Positions 3,359 to 49,115 of a DNA stretch of 64,000 nt are shown in pieces. The position numbers and the translations under genes are program-made. Positions within the stretch are counted from its first letter, which is position 1. Every line of letters starts with the position of its first letter. Source of the DNA: a bacterium (GTDB taxonomy: Bacteria; Patescibacteriota; Minisyncoccia; Minisyncoccales; CG1-02-41-26); NCBI GenBank assembly GCA_030648255.1, contig JAUSHZ010000007.1, forward strand, positions 24,404 to 88,403, written 5' to 3'. The notes beneath the pieces were generated by a model, which was given only the letters and a program-made list of their open reading frames with translations, did no database searches and was not told the DNA's origin.

Positions 3359-4738
3359 CTAGAAAACCATTTCTATCTTTATCTTATCTAGGCTTTTTGG
3401 CGCTCTTTTTATCCAAAAAGGCCAAAATTGCGTGTCCAGTCGTTCAATTTGGGGGTAGCTATTATTCAATAAAATCTCCATATCTTCTTTAGATTTTCCA
3501 GCTAAATCCGCAATTAAGGCTGTTTGGTCAATATCATTATAAAGCTTGGCATCTGTTTTTAAATTAAAAATCAAACTCCCTTTTTCCGTAATGCTGCCTT
3601 TTGGAACTACGCTTGTCGCTAAGCTTTGTTCGTATAATTTCTTTGAAGAAGATAGTTTTGTATCAATAAAGCTTTTGGCCATATCCTGCAAATCTGATCC
3701 CTTAAAAACAATTGTCTTAGCTTTTATTTTTGCATAACAATTAAATTCAGCGAGGTTGGCGCCAACAGCTTGAGAACAAGAGAACTCGGGCTCGCCATAG
3801 TCAACTGATTCTTGGTTAAAAGAAAATCCAGCGGTTGTTTGCTCCTTCAAGCCCGAAACAGCCATTTTTTTTAACTCCCTAATCAAGCTTTCTTGAGCAT
3901 TATCCATATCTCCTTGAGTTACTTGATCAACTTCTTTCTGACCCCCGCCGTCAATTTTTTCTCTTGATTCACCCCAAACATTATAGTATAAAGCTGTTCC
4001 TGTTAATCCTGGAATAGAAAACTTAGCAGGGGCTATATTATATTCCTCTCCCTCCTGATCAGCGACAACCTGAACCTCTGTAATGCTTGGGGTTAATTTT
4101 CCATTAAACAATGTGGCTTGGGGCAAAGAAATCTTATTTTTTGCCCGATAAACCTTTCCATCTTTTGATGATATAAATCTTGTTCCTGCTTTTAAGTTTA
4201 AGGGCATTGGGGGATTAATATTATTGTAAACAAATATAGCGCCCGTTGCCCCAGATTGTTCTGTTTCTTTTCCAGTTGACTTAAATGTTTCCCATTTCTC
4301 TACTTCTTTTTCAATTACATTTCCGGGAATAATCTTTTTTTCAAAATCGATTTGCGCTTGAGAAAAAGAAACTTGAATCTCGTCTTTAATTGTAATTGGC
4401 TCTAATAGCGGTTTCACGCTTATTTCTGCTTTTGCCTGCATCGTTAAATATAAAAAGGCTCCCCCTAAAAGCAAAATGGCTACACCAATAACTATGGGAA
4501 TTTTTAGAGCAAGTCTTGGTAAAGTAAAAGAAACTCGAATTTCTTTTTTTCCCTTGCCACGTCGGAGTTCCGCAGGAACGGAGGCGGGTCTTTCTTTTTT
4601 CACCTCCCCCTTCTTCATCCCCTTTCTTGTAGGTGATTTTTTTTGAGGCTTAGTTGAAGCTAAAACAATTGGAAATTGTTCCTCTGTTTCTTCTGCTTCT
4701 TCCTCATCTGGATTTGTTATATCAATAATTTGCTTCAT
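3359..4738 (-). CDS. hypothetical membrane-anchored protein (acidic/basic N-term, single TM, large extracytoplasmic domain)
   Basis: 459-aa ORF; one hydrophobic helix IPIVIGVAILLLGGAFLYL; no recognisable family. Confidence 0.55.
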   Translation of the reverse strand: MKQIIDITNPDEEEAEETEEQFPIVLASTKPQKKSPTRKGMKKGEVKKERPASVPAELRRGKGKKEIRVSFTLPRLALKIPIVIGVAILLLGGAFLYLTMQAKAEISVKPLLEPITIKDEIQVSFSQAQIDFEKKIIPGNVIEKEVEKWETFKSTGKETEQSGATGAIFVYNNINPPMPLNLKAGTRFISSKDGKVYRAKNKISLPQATLFNGKLTPSITEVQVVADQEGEEYNIAPAKFSIPGLTGTALYYNVWGESREKIDGGGQKEVDQVTQGDMDNAQESLIRELKKMAVSGLKEQTTAGFSFNQESVDYGEPEFSCSQAVGANLAEFNCYAKIKAKTIVFKGSDLQDMAKSFIDTKLSSSKKLYEQSLATSVVPKGSITEKGSLIFNLKTDAKLYNDIDQTALIADLAGKSKEDMEILLNNSYPQIERLDTQFWPFWIKRAPKSLDKIKIEMVF

Positions 4739-29448: not shown

Positions 29449-29478
29449 TTGACAAATGACTTTGAAATTTGCTATTAT
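29449..29478 (+). promoter_or_regulatory. consensus sigma70 promoter
   Basis: TTGACA-18-TATTAT. Confidence 0.65.
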
Positions 29479-29484
29479 TTAAAT

Positions 29485-29611
29485 AACCTGCTGGATGCCT
29501 TAGTGACCACCGCTCGTAATTGACGGTCTGAGCTAAGGATTACTTGGGCACAGACCCAAGTCGATCCCTGCAGAACGAAGCCCGCGGCTATTTAAGCCGT
29601 GGTTTTCGTTT
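29485..29611 (+). ncRNA. candidate small RNA (~125 nt), convergent with and overlapping 3' end of ORF 29588-30103
   Basis: stems ccttag/ctaagg, cttggg/cccaag; terminator cccgcggct-attta-agccgtgg + UUUUCGUUU. Confidence 0.45.
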
Positions 29612-30103
29612 ATCTGAAGAAAAAATGTCTAAAACATTATTGGCTTTTACTACAACATCTGGCTTTCTTTCACCTCGGAAAACAGCGATGGCCTCTTGAT
29701 GCGCTTTACTTTTCTTGCCTATTTGGCTAAAAGACACCTTTGGCGATTTAATTTTATTTTTATCAAACAAAGAAAGTAAGATGCTTCTAATTACGGCTTC
29801 GTGACCTGGGTATTCTCTATCAATAATTAAAGAATCAATTTTTTCGTTTTTAATTAGTAAAAATACTAAACCAGCAAAAATTCTAAATACAAAATTTTTG
29901 TGGGGCCTGTCTATCTCTCGCATAACAATTAAAACCTTTCGTTTTTCTTTAGCGCTAATCAAAAGAGTTCTCGCCTTACCATTAGCAAAACAAACTACCG
30001 TTAGTTTCCTAGTATCTTCAACTTTTCCTGATTGATCAATTTCTATAGGCATAAAGTTATCATAATTTATTCTAATTCTAACATAAGGATTTTTACAAAA
30101 CAA
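29588..30103 (-). CDS. hypothetical protein (171 aa)
   Basis: ORF only; no family recognised. Confidence 0.4.
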   Translation of the reverse strand: MFCKNPYVRIRINYDNFMPIEIDQSGKVEDTRKLTVVCFANGKARTLLISAKEKRKVLIVMREIDRPHKNFVFRIFAGLVFLLIKNEKIDSLIIDREYPGHEAVIRSILLSLFDKNKIKSPKVSFSQIGKKSKAHQEAIAVFRGERKPDVVVKANNVLDIFSSDKRKPRLK

Positions 30104-31142: not shown

Positions 31143-31191
31143 TGTTTTTTCTTACATATTATACTAATATGATTAAAACTACAAATTAAAT

Positions 31192-31310
31192 GGTGGGCTA
31201 CCCCAGCTCAAATTTTGCGAAGTAATGCGGGGGCAACCCGCTTCGCCCACCGCCAGCTGGCGGTAAGGGATGGGGCTATTCGCCCCACGCAGGTTGCAAG
31301 ATATTTTTTT
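31192..31310. ncRNA. multi-stem structured element between M50 gene and rpmB (strand ambiguous; leader or sRNA)
   Basis: outer 7-bp ggtgggc/gcccacc; inner hairpins cgaag..cttcg, gcggg/cccgc, palindrome ccgccagctggcgg, ggggc-tatt-cgcccc. Confidence 0.4.
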
Positions 31311-31401: not shown

Positions 31402-31686
31402 ATGGCAAAAGTATGTACAATATGTGGCAAGGGCTCATTAATGTTTGGAAAATTAAACAAGTTAAGGGGAAAATATAACCCAGCCCCAAAAGTAAGAAAA
31501 TACCCAAACCTTCAATGGCTAACTGTGCCAAAAGATGTTCGCAATAAAAAATTCACTAAGCTTGCTGGCCAAAGAATCGAGGCCTGTACTAAGTGTATTA
31601 AAACTTTATCTAAGCCCGTGCGACAGAAAAAGCAAAAAGAATCTCCAAAAGAAGAAGTAAAAGAACCCGCAAAAATCGGGGCATAG
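31402..31686 (+). CDS. rpmB: 50S ribosomal protein L28 with Lys-rich C-terminal extension
   Basis: MAKVCTICGKG...YPNLQ; start at 31402 rather than track's 31357. Confidence 0.75.
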   Translation: MAKVCTICGKGSLMFGKLNKLRGKYNPAPKVRKYPNLQWLTVPKDVRNKKFTKLAGQRIEACTKCIKTLSKPVRQKKQKESPKEEVKEPAKIGA

Positions 31687-31756
31687 TATATCAGTATTAT
31701 GCAGGGCTGGGGGTCCTGTGAGCTGGGTGCGATTCCCAGTGCCCCGACTGTAAAGC

Positions 31757-31784
31757 CCGCCAAACCAAAAACCGCCGAAAGGCG
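31757..31784. terminator. bidirectional terminator after rpmB
   Basis: aaaaaccgccgaaaggcggttttt. Confidence 0.75.
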
Positions 31785-31832
31785 GTTTTTGGTTAAATTA
31801 TTACACTGGTAAGACCTGTGTAAAACTTTATC

Positions 31833-31862
31833 TTGACAATGGTTATATTTTTTTGCTAATAT
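31833..31862 (+). promoter_or_regulatory. consensus sigma70 promoter
   Basis: TTGACA-18-TAATAT. Confidence 0.65.
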
Positions 31863-31868
31863 AACAGT

Positions 31869-32060
31869 GTGCTTGTGGGGCGTCAGCCCTATTCGGCTAA
31901 TTCCTAAGCTGAAGGCAGGCACATTTACATCTTCTTGCGGGGCTGAAATGCAGAAAATCGGCTCTACTGCGGGGTGCGAGTAGTCCCTTTACGGGGTATC
32001 CAAAGCGCTACGAGGGAGGGTTGCCGTCCTCCCAGCTCCACAAGAGGATGTATTTTTTTA
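31869..32060 (+). ncRNA. candidate ~190-nt small RNA (ends base-paired, 6S-like architecture; identity unknown)
   Basis: 5' gcttgtgg pairs with 3' ccacaagc; gggagg-gttgccgt-cctccc hairpin then U-run 32052-32059. Confidence 0.45.
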
Positions 32061-32247
32061 TATAATCGTTATCTCGCAATCTAAATGCTGTGGCAATTTG
32101 AATTTCTTCTAATTCTATTCCATCGCATAATATTTTTACAGCTTCAATGGAGCATAAATAATCTAAACTTCCAATTCTTTTCACCAAGCAATACCCACCC
32201 CGTTTGCTTGTTTTATTTTGGTAAATTTTATCTGGATACTTAACTAT

Positions 32248-32436
32248 TTATTCCTCAACCTCAACCCCACACTCCCGACAAAAAATCTTAAAATCATTTA
32301 TGTTCTCGGTATGGTCAACCTGAAGCTGGCCATCAGAAAAAGTCAAAATGTCGTATTGATTCGGCTCACTAACAAACTCCCCCGCCCCACACTTCGCACA
32401 ACACCCATCAACTATTTTAAAAAACTTTTTTGACAT
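32248..32436 (-). CDS. small zinc-ribbon protein
   Basis: CCAKCGAG ... CRECG. Confidence 0.5.
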   Translation of the reverse strand: MSKKFFKIVDGCCAKCGAGEFVSEPNQYDILTFSDGQLQVDHTENINDFKIFCRECGVEVEE

Positions 32437-32440
32437 GAGT

Positions 32441-32983
32441 TTAAAATATTCTAAAAATAAAAAAATCTTGTGGTAAAAAAGAAACTAGAATAACCGTAGT
32501 GCCAATGACAAATAAAATTAGTAAAACATTTAATGCGGTAGTTCCATAATTTTCCTGTTCTTTTGGTTGCTTCATTGTGTTTGCTAAATTTATCGTTTTT
32601 TCTTTTAATTGTTCCATTCTAATTTCTATCAAATCCTTTGACACTATTTGCATTCTTGCCTCAATGATTTTACCTAATTCCTTAATCCATTTTTTATATT
32701 TTCCAGCTTCATCAATAAAAGTTCTCTTCACCCAAAAAATTGCGTATGCGATAGATAAAAATAATATAAATTGTCCAAGTAGCCATAATTCTAAATGTTT
32801 TGCAAAAGATAATGCTGTAAAGCCAAAACCAGCTATTAAACCAAACACTTGGACTAATTTATATACATAATCAAGTGCCCTTTCCCTCACTTTCTCGTGT
32901 GCTTGCACTATTTCTTCCTGTAATTTTATATCCTCGTGAAGATAATATAAATTATCTTTGAGTAATTGTGTGTATTCTTTCAT
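32441..32983 (-). CDS. hypothetical membrane protein
   Basis: 2-3 TM helices. Confidence 0.45.
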   Translation of the reverse strand: MKEYTQLLKDNLYYLHEDIKLQEEIVQAHEKVRERALDYVYKLVQVFGLIAGFGFTALSFAKHLELWLLGQFILFLSIAYAIFWVKRTFIDEAGKYKKWIKELGKIIEARMQIVSKDLIEIRMEQLKEKTINLANTMKQPKEQENYGTTALNVLLILFVIGTTVILVSFLPQDFFIFRIF

Positions 32984-33036
32984 ATTTTAAAAACCTTCTT
33001 TGCCATAGATTTAATTAGCTGGAATCTAAAAGAAAT

Positions 33037-33285
33037 TTACCTATATTTTTCTGGCATAAATTTTGCTTCTTCCTGCCAAGTCAAATTAAATACATCTTCG
33101 CCAATTCTATGAAATTCAAATAGACAATCTCCATCTACACATCCATCTTCTTCGTCCCATTCCTCAACACTAACCATATTTTCGTCTTTTAAACAATCAA
33201 CCGTACCTAATCCATTTTTTTCGCAAATGTCTGCTATATCGTCAAAAGAATACTTTTTATCTTTTGTAAAAATTTCCATAATCAT
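33037..33285 (-). CDS. small acidic protein
   Basis: ORF only. Confidence 0.35.
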   Translation of the reverse strand: MIMEIFTKDKKYSFDDIADICEKNGLGTVDCLKDENMVSVEEWDEEDGCVDGDCLFEFHRIGEDVFNLTWQEEAKFMPEKYR

Positions 33286-33457
33286 AATTAAGAAATATTT
33301 CTTTTACATCTTTTTTTGAGTATCTCTCAATAACAACACTCTTATTCCAAACTTGTAGATCTTTTCCCTCGTACTCCAAATAATCAAACGGCTCAGTAGT
33401 CGTTTTGAAATACGAATAAATTTTATTGTATTGAGATTCTAATTTTTTATAATTCAT
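33257..33457 (-). CDS. small hypothetical protein (overlaps next ORF by 29 nt)
   Basis: ORF only. Confidence 0.3.
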   Translation of the reverse strand: MNYKKLESQYNKIYSYFKTTTEPFDYLEYEGKDLQVWNKSVVIERYSKKDVKEIFLNYDYGNFYKR

Positions 33458-33462
33458 AATTT

Positions 33463-34305
33463 TTATGAAAAATCTGTTAAAAACTTGATTTGGTTTGCTT
33501 GTTGCACATTAAAGTTTATTTTATTTTTGATAAATTCCAAACGATATTCTGGAGAAATTTCCCCGCCATTTGCCAACCTATCTAAAATCATTTGATAATA
33601 TTTAGGATGTATTTCACAAGAAACAAAATCTCTCTTAAGTTCTTTACATTTTAGTAGCTCTGAACCACTCCCACCAAACAACACAAAAATATTGTCGCCT
33701 TCTTTGGTGCTTGATTTTATCAACATTTCAACTAAGCTCAAAGGTATTTGGCAAGAATGAAAAGTTTTATCTTTAGAAACATTTTTAACTAAATCAAAAT
33801 AAAACCAAGAGTATGGCATCCTTCCAGCACTTCCATTTTTAATTCTTCCCTGTATTCTTTTATCGGTTGGATTTTGATAGGGTAAAGCAACTTGATCTTT
33901 ATAAAAATTATTATTTTTTGTTTTTGTAGCGTGTAAAATAACTCTATGGGCAGTGGTAAATTTTTTATCGCTATGGCCAATATTTGAGTTATAAACCCAA
34001 ACATAGTCATTTACTAAAAAGGCATTGTCGTCTAGAAATTTTACTCTTAAATAGGCATTTTGTTTTGGGTAATTCATCATAAATAAATTCCCTGTCGGTT
34101 TTAAAACCCTCATACATTCTTTCGTAAGCTCAATATACCAATCAATATACTCATTCCATTTAGCGGTAAATTTTTTACCAGCATAATTTATGCCCACATT
34201 ATAATCTGGGTCACCATATACCATATCAACCGAATTATCTGGCATTTTCTTTAGAGTAACTAGAATATCGTCATTAAAAATTTTGTTTATAAAATTTTCT
34301 ATCAT
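33463..34305 (-). CDS. DNA methyltransferase, beta-class N6A/N4C
   Basis: DPDY (motif IV-like) near N-term, FVLFGGSGSE (motif I) near C-term. Confidence 0.75.
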   Translation of the reverse strand: MIENFINKIFNDDILVTLKKMPDNSVDMVYGDPDYNVGINYAGKKFTAKWNEYIDWYIELTKECMRVLKPTGNLFMMNYPKQNAYLRVKFLDDNAFLVNDYVWVYNSNIGHSDKKFTTAHRVILHATKTKNNNFYKDQVALPYQNPTDKRIQGRIKNGSAGRMPYSWFYFDLVKNVSKDKTFHSCQIPLSLVEMLIKSSTKEGDNIFVLFGGSGSELLKCKELKRDFVSCEIHPKYYQMILDRLANGGEISPEYRLEFIKNKINFNVQQANQIKFLTDFS

Positions 34306-35141
34306 TTTTTGTTTTGATTTATTAAGTTATACCTAACTGACTTTAAAAATTTAATTGAAGTTATGTCTTGGGGATTAGTAAAAGTATAAGCATACAAATT
34401 AAGTGCATCAAACCCCTTTTGCCTTTCCCTGACCACATAGATACAAACAATTTCTTTTATTTTTGTTTTTAATTCTGGTTTTTGTTTTGCCTGCCAATAA
34501 TAAAGAAAGGGGTGGTAAATTTGGTATATCGAAAAATTCGTTGGCTTACCATTTTTTGCTTCAAAAATCCCTATTTTGCCCATAAATTCAATCGTTAAAT
34601 CAATCTCAATCTGAACTTTATTTAGTTTTATCCCTACATTTTTACCAAAACCATACCCTAAATTAGCTTTTGTTCTATGGGGAAAATATGTTTTTGGTCT
34701 ACTGGCAATGTCCGAATTATCAAACTCTTTGTCTTGACCAAATAAAAAGTGATGCAAAATTCGCTGATTGTTTGCAACCGACAAAATATTCGATTCGCTG
34801 GTGTTGTATTGGTTTAAAATTGATTTTTTATATTGCCAATCAATTATCTTTTGTATTGGCTCAAAATTATGATAAATTTTTTCTATATCTTTAATAAACT
34901 GGTGCTTTCCACTTCCTAAATGAATAAGAGCAAAATCTTCTTTTTGCAAAGCAACAGGCAGTCTTTCTTTGGTATCTAGTTTTGTAGCGTCGAAATGATT
35001 TTGAAATCCTACTTTTTTAGAAACCGCTTTAACTAAGTCATTGTCAAAAACAAAATCGTTTTTATCTTTACAAATTTTAAAAATCATCGACAAAACCTTT
35101 TTCTTTTTATTTTCTTTTTGTGAAGCTTTTTTGGTACTCAT
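34302..35141 (-). CDS. putative type II restriction endonuclease (PD-(D/E)xK-like)
   Basis: 4-nt overlap with the methyltransferase gene; EIDLT..IFEAK could be a D..ExK core. Confidence 0.45.
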   Translation of the reverse strand: MSTKKASQKENKKKKVLSMIFKICKDKNDFVFDNDLVKAVSKKVGFQNHFDATKLDTKERLPVALQKEDFALIHLGSGKHQFIKDIEKIYHNFEPIQKIIDWQYKKSILNQYNTSESNILSVANNQRILHHFLFGQDKEFDNSDIASRPKTYFPHRTKANLGYGFGKNVGIKLNKVQIEIDLTIEFMGKIGIFEAKNGKPTNFSIYQIYHPFLYYWQAKQKPELKTKIKEIVCIYVVRERQKGFDALNLYAYTFTNPQDITSIKFLKSVRYNLINQNKK

Positions 35142-35165
35142 AATTTTATTTTTACTATATCAAAA

Positions 35166-35786
35166 TTAAATACTTTTGTCTTTCACTACATCTGTGAAAT
35201 TTCTCAAAACACTGATGACTTTGCCTTGGATTATTACGGTTTTAACATATAGGGGTTTTAAGGCGGGGTTGGCGGGTTGGAGGCGGATGCGGGTTTTTTC
35301 TTTAAATATCTTTTTTAAAGTAACTTCGTTGCCGTTTATCAACGCCACAGCTGTTTCCCCATTTTCTACGGTGTTTTGTTTGCGGATTATCACAGTATCC
35401 CCATCAAAAATACCTTCGTCAATCATACTGTTGCCTTTTACCCCCAAAGCAAAATGTTCGCCCGAGACAGCCACCATATTTTGAGGCACGGTTATAGTTT
35501 CGTGTTCTTCAATAGCTTCAATTGGCTCACCTGCGGCAATGTATCCCTTAAATGGAATGCTAACACTTGACTCCTGCTTGCCAACTTTTACAGCTCTAGC
35601 GATATTTTTTTCTCGCGTAATATAACCCTTTCCTTGCAAGACCTGCATATAGTGGTTCACTGTTGAAACAGACGCCAACTTAAAATGTTTTCTTATTTCC
35701 TCGTGCGATGGGCTATACCCATTTTTTTCAAAACAATTTTGAATATAATCCAAAAACTTTTTTTGTTTTTTAGTAAGTGAAAACAT
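35166..35786 (-). CDS. lexA: LexA repressor (S24 peptidase)
   Basis: winged HTH N-term, GNSM...K catalytic dyad; start at MFSLTKKQKKF. Confidence 0.8.
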   Translation of the reverse strand: MFSLTKKQKKFLDYIQNCFEKNGYSPSHEEIRKHFKLASVSTVNHYMQVLQGKGYITREKNIARAVKVGKQESSVSIPFKGYIAAGEPIEAIEEHETITVPQNMVAVSGEHFALGVKGNSMIDEGIFDGDTVIIRKQNTVENGETAVALINGNEVTLKKIFKEKTRIRLQPANPALKPLYVKTVIIQGKVISVLRNFTDVVKDKSI

Positions 35787-35957
35787 ATGAATACTTTTAT
35801 TCACTGTAATAGAACAAAAATAGAAAATCAAGCCAAGTTATCCACAGCAACCAAAAAGACGGCTTTAGCCGTCATTAGACAAAAACACCCCTTAAAAAAT
35901 TTTACAGAAACTTTGAAAATTCTGCTGGCGAAACATTTATTTCCCGCAAAATTTGTC

Positions 35958-36155
35958 TTAATAATTTAGGCTGTACTTAGGATTTGTTTTCGCTACTTCA
36001 AGGCAAAGCAAGATTGCTTCGCGAATTCTTTCTTTTAAATCCCCTAATGTTTTTGCTTGCGTATGACAACCAGGCAGGGCTGGCACAGAAGCCACGAAAT
36101 AGCCGTCTTCATCCTGCTCAATAATAATTTTATATTGATTGATTTTTTTAGCCAT
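35958..36155 (-). CDS. HicB-family antitoxin-like protein (solo)
   Basis: YKIIIEQDEDGYFVASVPALPGCHTQAKTLGDLKERIREAI. Confidence 0.7.
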   Translation of the reverse strand: MAKKINQYKIIIEQDEDGYFVASVPALPGCHTQAKTLGDLKERIREAILLCLEVAKTNPKYSLNY

Positions 36156-48956: not shown

Positions 48957-49115
48957 ATTTTTTTATTATATTATAATTATATTAGAGCTGGCAATAATAG
49001 CTTTTAGGAGACCACGAGGGTACCCTCCGCGCATGTGGAGGTCTTAATACTTGTGGTAAATCCTAGGAGACGCCACTCTATAAAAATCATCTCTTTTGAG
49101 GTGTTTTTTATTATT

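What the first reader, a model, noticed from the sequence alone, without database searches (positions are those of the whole stretch)
31833..32060. Second consensus-promoter small RNA (~190 nt) with paired termini
TTGACA-18-TAATAT is followed by an RNA whose 5' gcttgtgg pairs with 3' ccacaagc, closing a long irregular hairpin. It ends in gggagg..cctccc plus a U-run. No ORF with a start or SD is present. The architecture recalls 6S RNA, but no specific family match can be asserted from sequence alone.
Basis: partly seen in the sequence, partly recalled or inferred. Interest (0 to 1): 0.55.

Follow-up and report, generated by a model that had tools for sequence, protein, structure and literature searches.

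The report
Orphan partner RNA of RNase toxin
The small RNA gene is real but is not a 6S RNA: its 124-nt core belongs to a widespread, uncatalogued family of four-armed structured RNAs that always sits tail-to-tail with, and overlaps, a predicted RNase toxin gene, and here that toxin gene is truncated, so the RNA is most likely a left-over antitoxin-type RNA.

Summary
The promoter (TTGACA-18-TAATAT with TG), a stable fold (z = -4.5) and the U-run are all present.

Homologues show the transcript has two parts:
- a lineage-restricted 5' Y-shaped domain (31867-31923);
- a conserved 124-nt core (31929-32052) forming a four-way junction.

The fold has strong covariation: 19 of 28 pairs show compensatory changes, and 0 of 500 shuffles reach the observed score.

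The core is coupled to a roughly 150-aa PBECR3 (colicin-D-like BECR) predicted RNase gene on the opposite strand. The last 12 or so codons of that gene overlap the RNA's 3' helices.
- Of 55 loci found through the protein alone, 54 carry the RNA; the 55th contig ends inside the gene.
- The RNA also occurs without the protein, including inside phage tRNA arrays.
- The protein has no conserved protein neighbour.

In this window only the C-terminal 79 residues of the RNase remain, and the catalytic Lys-His is gone.

Best reading: a toxin/RNA-antitoxin module, here an orphan antitoxin-type RNA in a variable slot downstream of tRNA-Pro. No function has been tested experimentally.

The parts
31833..31862 (+). 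Promoter: -35 TTGACA (31833-38), 18-nt spacer with TG at 31854-55, -10 TAATAT (31857-62)
   Evidence: Sequence and promoter scan, 10 of 12 matches with TG. Homologue L048 has an equivalent promoter before the same 5' domain, and most other homologues have TTGACA..TATAAT directly before the core.
31867..31923 (+). 5' accessory Y-shaped domain: closing stem plus two hairpins. It is not part of the conserved family core.
   Evidence: MFE -28.5 kcal/mol, z = -3.9. Found only in the window, L048 and L018/L025 among all loci (nhmmer). Stems differ compatibly in those three sequences, which is weak support.
31926..31945 (+). P1 5' strand: extension 31926-31938, core GGGGCUG 31939-31945
   Evidence: Pairs with 32033-32052. 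8 of 10 modelled P1 pairs show compensatory changes.
31946..31972 (+). J1/2 AAAU; P2 GCAG/CUGC with loop AAAAUCGGCUCUA; J2/3 GG. This is the most conserved stretch.
   Evidence: Invariant in 31 sequences of A1, although 20 of these nt were the search word. In the protein-first set..GGCUCUA-CUGC-GG is still near-invariant, and the loop is usually the 10-nt AAAGGCUCUA.
31973..32009 (+). P3 (GGUGC/GCGCU), internal loop (GAGUAGU / UAUCCAAA), distal hairpin P3b (31985-31996)
   Evidence: All 5 P3 pairs and all 4 P3b pairs covary.
32010..32032 (+). J3/4 ACGA(G) and P4 hairpin, whose loop carries the conserved G-Y-C-G
   Evidence: P4 pairs covary, GC<->AU in 13 of 31 sequences. The loop motif G-Y-C-R is conserved in 54 protein-first copies.
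32033..32059 (+). P1 3' strand (32033-32052) followed by a U-run (32053-32059). P1 acts as the intrinsic terminator stem.
   Evidence: Most promoter-driven homologues show the same helix plus U-run arrangement.
31929..32052 (+). Conserved 124-nt core RNA as matched by the family covariance model
   Evidence: Model R1 scores 132.9 bits, E = 2.8e-35 on the + strand. Reverse-strand matches to the model at other copies score only 17.5-19.4 bits, and none was listed at the window copy. There is a single copy in the window.
32008..32247 (-). Remnant of the partner gene X (PBECR3-like RNase): C-terminal 79 residues only, no start codon, catalytic Lys-His region missing. The stop codon is at 32008-32010, and the last ~15 codons (32008-32052) overlap the RNA.
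   Evidence: hmmsearch with the X profile gives E = 2.6e-34, matching profile positions 79-150 only. See also alignment A2 and the translation.

Best explanation
The window carries one copy of a previously uncatalogued structured RNA family. The RNA is the obligatory partner of a PBECR3-type (colicin-D-like BECR fold) predicted endoribonuclease, here called X.

Shown:
- The RNA has its own promoter and terminator.
- It folds into a covariation-supported four-way junction (P1-P4).
- It is encoded tail-to-tail with X, so that about 45 nt of its 3' part are antisense to the last codons of X.

Inferred:
- X is a toxin, and the RNA is its antitoxin or immunity factor.
- The main mechanism is probably direct binding of the folded RNA to X, as in type III systems. 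The RNA's cloverleaf-like shape (helices of 7, 4, 5 and 5 bp) could present a substrate-like surface.
- The 3' antisense overlap may add type I-like control of X mRNA.
- It also physically locks the two genes together.

In this genome X has lost its N-terminal half, including the catalytic Lys-His. The RNA, with its intact promoter and a top-scoring fold, is therefore an orphan antitoxin-type RNA. It may be a relic, or it may be retained as protection against incoming copies of X. It sits in a variable slot just downstream of rpmB-tRNA-Pro.
For: RNA reality and strand:
- On a MAFFT alignment of 31 sequences, 94.7% of cells pair and 19 of 28 pairs have compensatory changes. None of 500 shuffles reaches this, and slid controls pair only 40-54%.
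- RNAalifold finds 24 of 33 pairs compensated.
- The same holds in 52 distinct protein-first copies: 96.2% paired.
- There are 125 G-U against 20 A-C pairs. The model scores 133 bits on the + strand; reverse-strand matches to the model at other copies score only 17.5-19.4 bits.

Coupling to X:
- X homologues were retrieved from GTDB genomes by protein patterns only, giving 55 loci across many Patescibacteria classes.
- 54 carry the RNA on the opposite strand overlapping the X stop. The 55th contig ends inside X.
- X has no conserved protein neighbour.

Asymmetry:
- RNA-first loci include 16 with intact X and 4 with degraded X (window, L024, L030, L050).
- At least 6 have no X at all.
- RNA-only copies sit inside tRNA arrays: 20 tRNAs in the viral contig L121, 9 in L058, and next to 13 tRNAs in viral contig L119.

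X as an RNase:
- Pfam PBECR3 matches at up to 34.6 bits against a cutoff of 30, and the family is precomputed for most homologues.
- An AlphaFold model with pLDDT 90 matches MuF-C and polyvalent-protein domains in BFVD with probability 1.0.
- Lys58-His59 and Thr128 are invariant. This fits the His-plus-Thr/Ser site described for PBECR and colicin D (PMC5512222; bioRxiv 10.64898/2026.08.28.747851).

Against a purely antisense role:
- The most conserved RNA segment lies outside the overlap.
- It has no conserved complement near the X start.
Against: - Nothing has been tested experimentally. PBECR3 RNase activity and toxicity are themselves only predictions.
- No solved structure matches X.
- Part of the RNA's 3' conservation is explained by the overlapping codons (Leu-Leu-Trp-Ser-Trp..Pro-Pro-Ser-stop).
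- The RNA-first sample was drawn with an exact 20-mer, so it is biased towards one subfamily.
- The cloverleaf resemblance fails formal tRNA tests: the Rfam tRNA model gives no hit, and ARAGORN gives no call at default settings.
- A cofactor role for the RNA would equally explain why X never occurs without it.
- In this window X is dead, so the RNA may have no current function.
Confidence: 0.55

Rival explanations
1. The RNA is a required cofactor or specificity subunit of X. Together they form a ribonucleoprotein effector in which the RNA scaffolds, activates or targets the RNase rather than inhibiting it.
For: X never occurs without the RNA (54 of 54 evaluable loci). The RNA has an elaborate conserved fold with invariant loops, typical of protein-bound RNAs. 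X has no other conserved partner.
Against: RNA-only copies are common, including in phage tRNA arrays with no X. That is hard to explain for a mere cofactor. A free-standing BECR RNase with no inhibitor would be unusual among known conflict systems (established knowledge; PMC5512222). Degraded X next to an intact RNA appears 4 times, which is the usual decay pattern of toxin-antitoxin pairs.
Confidence: 0.17
2. The system is purely type I-like. The RNA acts only as an antisense RNA against the 3' end of X mRNA, promoting decay or blocking translation. The conserved fold serves only stability and termination.
For: The arrangement is convergent, with about 45 nt of perfect complementarity at the 3' ends in every locus. 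Known type I systems such as TxpA/RatA and BsrG/SR4 use this layout (own knowledge).
Against: The strongest conservation (J1/2, P2, its loop, J2/3, the P3 internal loop) lies outside the overlap. It has no conserved complement in the X 5' region. The complementary part is buried in helices P4 and P1. RNA-only copies in tRNA arrays keep the whole four-way junction.
Confidence: 0.12
3. The RNA has an X-independent cellular or phage function related to tRNA biology, for example a tRNA-shaped decoy or processing signal. X is a mobile gene that merely lands on, or hitch-hikes with, it.
For: Copies lie inside tRNA arrays, in the same orientation as and directly abutting tRNAs (L058, L121). The junction has cloverleaf-like helix lengths. 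Many copies lack X.
Against: The closest relatives lack the RNA at the syntenic site, and it is a single copy in a variable slot, so it is not a core gene. The precise, invariant register of the X stop codon within J3/4 across distant classes argues for co-inheritance as one module. Formal tRNA tests fail.
Confidence: 0.1
4. It is a 6S RNA or another housekeeping RNA (SRP, RNase P, tmRNA) of a Patescibacteria genome, too divergent for the Rfam models.
For: Its size of about 190 nt, its own strong promoter, its high GC and its stable fold fit.
Against: No Rfam hit appears, even at E <= 10. The conserved core is a 124-nt four-way junction, not a closing stem, central bubble and terminal stem. 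The RNA is absent at the same locus in relatives with 78% nucleotide identity. It is tied to a mobile RNase gene.
Confidence: 0.02

Closest known systems
Type III toxin-antitoxin systems (ToxIN, CptIN, TenpIN)
   Same: An endoribonuclease toxin is paired with a structured RNA rather than a protein antitoxin. They sit in defence and mobile contexts. There is precedent for phages carrying antitoxin-like RNA to escape (pseudo-ToxI; own knowledge). The RNA here is the only conserved partner of the RNase.
   Different: Type III antitoxins are tandem repeats upstream of the toxin on the same strand, and the toxin cuts them into units. Those toxins are not BECR/PBECR proteins (own knowledge). Here a single-copy 124-nt four-way-junction RNA has its own promoter, lies on the opposite strand and overlaps the toxin's 3' end.
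Type I toxin-antitoxin systems with 3'-overlapping antisense RNAs (TxpA/RatA, BsrG/SR4; enzyme toxins SymE, RalR)
   Same: The toxin gene and small RNA are convergent with complementary 3' ends, and each has its own promoter.
   Different: Typical type I toxins are small hydrophobic peptides, and their antisense RNAs lack a deeply conserved, covarying multi-helix fold. Here the most conserved RNA parts lie outside the overlap.
Colicin D with its immunity protein ImmD
   Same: X belongs to the colicin-D-like branch of the BECR fold, with the Lys-His motif (bioRxiv 10.64898/2026.08.28.747851). Colicin D is inhibited by a partner that mimics its tRNA substrate (own knowledge, Graille et al. 2004).
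   Different: That inhibitor is a protein. Here the candidate inhibitor is an RNA, and substrate mimicry is only inferred from helix geometry.
6S RNA (Rfam RF00013 and relatives)
   Same: It is a roughly 190-nt stand-alone RNA with a strong sigma-70-type promoter.
   Different: There is no model match, the architecture differs, the RNA is not conserved in close relatives, and it is coupled to a mobile gene.
tRNA and tRNA-like structures
   Same: It is a four-way junction with helices of 7, 4, 5 and 5 bp. It has a 10-nt loop A..GG..A on the second arm, a 7-nt loop on the fourth arm, a 4-5-nt spacer before the fourth arm and none after it. Some copies lie inside tRNA arrays.
   Different: The third arm is extended by an internal loop and a further hairpin. 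J1/2 is 4 nt, there is no CCA end, and P1 extends into a terminator. The tRNA covariance model and ARAGORN do not recognise it.

Membership tests
6S RNA | Match to the Rfam 6S covariance models | tested here: not met
   No hit at gathering score in the window, none at E <= 10 over 31600-32300, and none in 20 homologous loci.
6S RNA | Long closing stem formed by the 5' and 3' ends, a large central bubble and a terminal stem | tested here: not met
   The conserved fold is a four-way junction. The 5'/3' pairing costs +15 kcal/mol with probability about 0. Most homologues lack the 5' segment entirely.
6S RNA | Housekeeping gene conserved in related genomes | tested here: not met
   It is absent from the syntenic slot in L001-L010, which have 78% nucleotide identity in the flanks. 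The model finds no copy in L001-L014. Only the fetched loci were tested, not whole genomes.
SRP RNA / RNase P RNA / tmRNA | Match to the Rfam models, or an ARAGORN tmRNA call | tested here: not met
tRNA | Recognition by the tRNA covariance model or ARAGORN | tested here: not met
   The Rfam tRNA model has no hit on 31929-32052 at E <= 10. ARAGORN makes no call on 85 family members at default settings, even with introns allowed, and only scattered inconsistent calls at lowered thresholds.
tRNA-like structure (topology only) | Four-way junction with acceptor-, D-, anticodon- and T-like arm lengths, and coaxial continuity of the last arm with the first | tested here: inconclusive
   Helices of 7, 4, 5 and 5 bp, with 0 nt between P4 and P1. 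J1/2 is 4 nt and the third arm is extended. A loop-loop contact (GGC with GYC) is compatible but has no two-sided covariation.
Type III toxin-antitoxin | Protein endoRNase toxin with an RNA as its only conserved partner | tested here: met
   Genomic association only: 54 of 54 evaluable X loci carry the RNA, and no protein neighbour is conserved. X matches PBECR3.
Type III toxin-antitoxin | Antitoxin encoded as tandem direct repeats upstream of the toxin on the same strand | tested here: not met
   There is a single copy per locus, on the opposite strand and downstream.
Type III toxin-antitoxin | The RNA binds and inhibits the toxin protein | not testable with these tools
   This needs co-expression, binding and activity assays.
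Type I toxin-antitoxin | Antisense RNA complementary to the toxin mRNA | tested here: met
   About 45 nt of 3' overlap on opposite strands in every locus. In the window this is 32008-32052.
Type I toxin-antitoxin | The antisense RNA represses toxin mRNA translation or stability | not testable with these tools
   No expression data are available.
PBECR3 (PF18812), for partner protein X | Pfam match above the gathering score, and the conserved His with a C-terminal Thr/Ser | tested here: met
   The L027 copy scores 34.6 bits against a cutoff of 30, while other copies score about 22 bits. PF18812 is precomputed for most homologues. K58, H59 and T128 are invariant. The window remnant lacks the His region.

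The most novel reading that the evidence does not exclude
This is a new class of RNA antitoxin. A cloverleaf-shaped RNA directly inhibits a colicin-D-like BECR tRNase by imitating its tRNA substrate. The RNA is locked to the toxin gene by a dual-coding 3' overlap. Phages place the same RNA in their tRNA arrays as a counter-defence against this toxin.
Probability: 0.3. Interest if true: 0.85.

Novelty: new variant of a known kind. Interest (0 to 1): 0.72.

Why it matters
If correct, this adds a widespread RNase-toxin/RNA-antitoxin pairing with a layout unlike the described type I and type III systems. The RNA is a single-copy, convergent, overlapping four-way junction.

- It would give the large, uncharacterised PBECR3 family its first candidate immunity partner.
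- It would supply a well-supported new structured RNA family for Patescibacteria, a group in which almost no non-coding RNAs are known.
- It suggests that some non-tRNA genes in phage tRNA arrays are anti-defence RNAs.
- It is directly testable with two plasmids in E. coli.

For annotating this window, it replaces a tentative "6S-like" label with a specific, evidence-based one. It also flags a truncated toxin gene that ORF callers would miss.

Tried and rejected
- Rfam searches of the whole window, of the region at E <= 10, and of 20 homologous loci gave no family.
- Synteny via L28 homologues kept rpmB-tRNA-Pro, but the RNA was replaced by a NYN gene, so synteny gave no homologues.
- Exact look-ups of window proteins mostly returned nothing on record.
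- No att-type repeat of the tRNA-Pro 3' end was found in the window.
- BLAST of the RNA against cultured phage records gave only a 33-nt chance match. Plasmids gave no match.
- A 17-mer scan of viral contigs gave one chance hit in a GC-rich phage.
- Four of seven gapped-pattern viral hits were coding-sequence coincidences, apparently in a phage structural gene.
- Protein X gave no PADLOC, NCBIfam or PHROGs hits.
- The P2 loop has no conserved complement near the X start codon, so a 5' antisense seed was rejected.
- The P3 internal loop is not a sarcin-ricin motif, because the would-be bulged G varies.
- Literature searches for PBECR, RNA antitoxins, tRNA mimics, Patescibacteria non-coding RNAs and the core sequence string found no description of this RNA.

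Full report
**1. The observation**

The window is a 37% GC Patescibacteria-type chromosome. It carries an S12-S7-EF-G-EF-Tu-S10-L3 operon. The closest L28 homologues are labelled Paceibacteria, Nealsonbacteria or Gribaldobacteria.

At the reported place the sequence shows:
- TTGACA at 31833-38, an 18-nt spacer with TG at 31854-55, and TAATAT at 31857-62;
- a GC-rich (about 0.62) stretch;
- a GGGAGG..CCUCCC hairpin;
- seven U at 32053-59.

The 193-nt transcript folds at -83.1 kcal/mol, z = -4.5, and no shuffle does as well. The object is therefore real and non-random.

Two details are wrong.
- The 3' word is ccacaagA.
- The proposed closure by the two termini is not the fold. Forcing CUUGUGGGGC/GCUCCACAAG costs 15 kcal/mol, and it has essentially zero ensemble probability.

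The minimum-energy fold has two domains. One is a 5' Y-shaped domain. The other is a multibranched domain closed by 31926-31945 paired with 32033-52, directly before the U-run.

**2. Known families**

Rfam 15 finds only tRNA-Pro(GGG) at 31677-31748 and a DUF3800-V RNA at 48983 in the window. At E <= 10, nothing overlaps 31860-32060. ARAGORN finds no tmRNA.

**3. Context**

Upstream lie rpmB (31402-31686), tRNA-Pro and a terminator (31762-95). All downstream genes are on the minus strand.
- A 59-aa ORF overlaps the RNA's 3' end.
- Next comes a 62-aa zinc-ribbon ORF.
- Then a methyltransferase/DUF6996-6997 pair sits in a 31% GC stretch, followed by a LexA-like gene.

The nearest relatives (L001-L010, 78% nucleotide identity) keep rpmB, tRNA-Pro, the terminator and the 62-aa ORF. 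In place of window 31824-32239 they carry a NYN-domain gene with a different short promoter-hairpin element. The RNA therefore sits in a variable slot, not in a conserved housekeeping position.

**4. Homologues**

An exact 20-mer from the largest predicted loop (31945-64) was scanned against JGI metagenomes. It returned 44 loci, against roughly 2 expected by chance by my own estimate from 4^20. About 40 are true homologues.

They share only the 3' domain of the window RNA. Most have a TTGACA..TATAAT promoter directly in front of it and a U-run after it. The window's 5' domain recurs only in L048 and L018/L025.

A MAFFT alignment of 31 distinct sequences (A1) gives a four-way junction.
- RNAalifold finds 24 of 33 pairs with compensatory changes.
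- For the 28-pair core, 94.7% of cells pair and 19 pairs have double changes. None of 500 shuffles reaches this, and slid controls pair 40-54%.

The covariance model R1 scores the window copy at 132.9 bits on the + strand. Reverse-strand matches to the model at other copies score only 17.5-19.4 bits, and none was listed at the window copy. There is no second copy in the window and none in L001-L014. G-U pairs outnumber A-C pairs by 125 to 20, which fixes the strand.

**5. Anatomy (window coordinates)**

| Element | Coordinates | Notes |
|---|---|---|
| P1 | 31926-45 with 32033-52 | Core GGGGCUG/CAGCUCC |
| J1/2 | 31946-49 | AAAU |
| P2 | 31950-53 with 31967-70 | GCAG/CUGC, loop AAAAUCGGCUCUA |
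| J2/3 | 31971-72 | GG |
| P3 | 31973-77 with 32005-09 | Internal loop GAGUAGU/UAUCCAAA, variable hairpin 31985-96 |
| J3/4 | from 32010 | ACGA(G) |
| P4 | 32015-19 with 32027-32 | Loop carries conserved G-Y-C-G |

No nucleotide separates P4 from P1. P1 doubles as the terminator stem.

In unbiased copies the P2 loop is usually the 10-nt AAAGGCUCUA, and the P4 loop is 7 nt ending G-Y-C-R.

Several features resemble a cloverleaf:
- the helix lengths (7, 4, 5 and 5 bp);
- the A..GG..A loop;
- the 4-5-nt spacer before P4;
- the zero spacer after P4.

A GGC:GYC loop-loop contact is compatible with the data. This remains an analogy only. The tRNA model and ARAGORN do not recognise the RNA, and the loop contact has only one-sided variation.

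**6. The partner gene**

The sequence downstream of the RNA is conserved with synonymous substitutions on the minus strand. It encodes the C-terminus of a 150-185-aa protein, X, which ends ..Leu-Leu-Trp-Ser-Trp-Glu-Asp-Asp-x-Pro-Pro-Ser-stop.
- Its last 12-15 codons are the reverse complement of P4 and the P1 3' strand.
- Its stop codon falls in J3/4.

Evidence that X is a PBECR3-type RNase:
- It matches Pfam PBECR3 at up to 34.6 bits against a cutoff of 30. The family is precomputed for most of 188 homologues, all labelled hypothetical.
- An AlphaFold model has pLDDT 90. It matches MuF C-terminal and polyvalent-protein domains of phages with probability 1.0, but no solved structure.
- Lys58-His59, Asp62 and Thr128 are invariant. 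This fits the helix His plus C-terminal Thr/Ser site proposed for PBECR and colicin D (PMC5512222; bioRxiv 10.64898/2026.08.28.747851).

In the window only profile positions 79-150 survive, at 32008-32247 on the minus strand (E = 2.6e-34). There is no start codon, and the Lys-His region is gone. The remnant begins right after the stop of the zinc-ribbon ORF.

**7. Strength and direction of the association**

*Protein-first test.*
- X homologues were fetched from one genome per GTDB species, using two peptide patterns only.
- This gave 55 loci in Falkowbacteria, Saccharibacteria, Paceibacterota, Wolfe-, Nomura-, Levyi-, Woese- and Collierbacteria among others, plus a few MAGs labelled Bacteroidetes or Gammaproteobacteria.
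- The model finds the RNA in 54 of them, always on the opposite strand across the X stop. The 55th contig ends inside X.
- In this independent set, 96.2% of cells pair and 18 of 28 pairs are compensated.

*RNA-first test*:
- 16 distinct loci have intact X;
- four have degraded X (window remnant, L024 internal deletion, L030 frameshift, L050 remnant);
- at least six have no X.

Three X-less copies lie in or next to tRNA arrays:
- L121 is a 102-kb viral contig with the RNA between two tRNA-Leu genes in a 20-tRNA array;
- L058 has the RNA inside a 9-tRNA array;
- L119 is a viral contig with a divergent copy next to 13 tRNAs.

One viral contig (L115) has X plus the RNA.

The neighbours of X are not conserved. 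Some loci are housekeeping contexts, while others are type I or II restriction-modification loci such as hsdM-X-RNA-hsdS in L029 and L047.

So X depends on the RNA, but the RNA does not depend on X. This is the asymmetry expected of a toxin and its antidote.

**8. Mechanism**

*Shown:* a separately transcribed, structured RNA is the sole conserved partner of a predicted RNase, with a fixed 3' overlap.

*Inferred:* X is toxic and the RNA neutralises it.

I favour direct RNA-protein inhibition, for three reasons.
- The most conserved RNA elements lie outside the overlap.
- They have no conserved complement near the X start.
- X-less copies keep the whole junction.

The overlap may add antisense control. 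It also guarantees that a deletion removing the 3' part of the RNA gene damages the X reading frame as well.

Copies in phage tRNA arrays fit a counter-defence role, analogous to phage-borne pseudo-antitoxin RNA in type III systems (own knowledge). That too is inference.

Rivals are a cofactor RNA, a purely antisense RNA, an independent tRNA-related function, and 6S or another housekeeping RNA. They are weighed in the rival section.

**9. Comparison with known systems and novelty**

The system works most like a type III toxin-antitoxin pair, but it fails that family's defining gene layout of same-strand upstream tandem repeats. It shares the layout of 3'-overlapping type I pairs, but neither their toxin type nor their unstructured antisense logic.

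The family is not in Rfam 15, and I found no description in the searchable literature. I rate it a new variant of a known kind.

The window copy is an orphan. Its RNA gene is intact (promoter, top-range model score), and its toxin gene is dead.

**10. Caveats**

- All functional claims are computational.
- The RNA-first sample is biased by the exact 20-mer.
- Alignment A4 is fitted to the model, although A1 is not.
- Some 3' conservation is due to the overlapping codons.
- MAG taxonomic labels outside Patescibacteria may reflect binning errors.
- The role of the window-specific 5' domain is unknown.

Noticed in passing
window 29449-29608 (+) and 29588-30103 (-): Another near-consensus promoter (TTGACA-18-TATTAT) drives a roughly 125-nt RNA with a terminator hairpin. 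It has MFE z = -5.8 and no Rfam hit. Its 3' end overlaps the stop of a convergent 171-aa ORF with no Pfam match. This is the same tail-to-tail RNA/protein layout as the module studied here.
   Followed up: partly
window 31188-31306 (+): A GC-rich (0.66) element ending in a U-run lies between the M50 peptidase gene and rpmB. It has z = -3.3 and no Rfam hit. Relatives L001, L011 and L013 have only 70-80 bp in this gap, so it is a lineage-specific insertion.
   Followed up: partly
L001 3440-3555 (+) with 3529-4125 (-); same in L002-L010: In the closest relatives the slot after tRNA-Pro holds a NYN-domain (PIN-like nuclease) gene. Next to it are a TTGACA..TATATT promoter and a roughly 75-nt hairpin RNA that overlaps the NYN stop. 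This may be a second nuclease plus convergent small RNA pairing at the same hot spot.
   Followed up: no
window 31867-31923 vs 31934-31943: The 5' accessory domain starts with CUUGUGGGGC, a near copy of the P1 5' strand CUUGCGGGGC. Both can pair with 32035-32044. The alternative is 15 kcal/mol worse and cannot form in L018. It could be a duplication scar or a switch; this is unresolved.
   Followed up: partly
L121 3835-6411; L058 98-1367; L119 7265-12206: Dense tRNA arrays of 20, 9 and 13 genes, two of them on IMG/VR viral contigs, carry the RNA as a non-tRNA member in the same orientation. It directly abuts neighbouring tRNAs and has no X gene.
   Followed up: partly
window 48983-49080 (+): There is a DUF3800-V RNA (RF02964) match at 41.9 bits. 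A DUF3800 gene lies next to the RNA family copy in L044, and a weak DUF3800 match appears in L013.
   Followed up: no
window 31677-31686: tRNA-Pro(GGG) begins 10 nt before the rpmB stop codon. The rpmB-tRNA-Pro arrangement is conserved in L001-L013.
   Followed up: partly
L013 3345-3410: A partial duplicate of a tRNA 3' half (..GATTCCGGGCAGCCCGA) follows tRNA-Pro, suggesting an integration scar. The window itself has no such repeat.
   Followed up: partly
window 32001-36000: A low-GC (0.31-0.32) stretch carries an N6/N4 DNA methyltransferase (33463-34305), a DUF6996/DUF6997 gene (34302-35141, a likely restriction partner) and a LexA-like repressor (35166-35831). This is a defence-island-like neighbourhood for the RNA.
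   Followed up: partly
L029 1093-5516, L047, L056: The X-RNA module is inserted between the hsdM and hsdS genes of type I restriction-modification loci in several unrelated contigs.
   Followed up: partly
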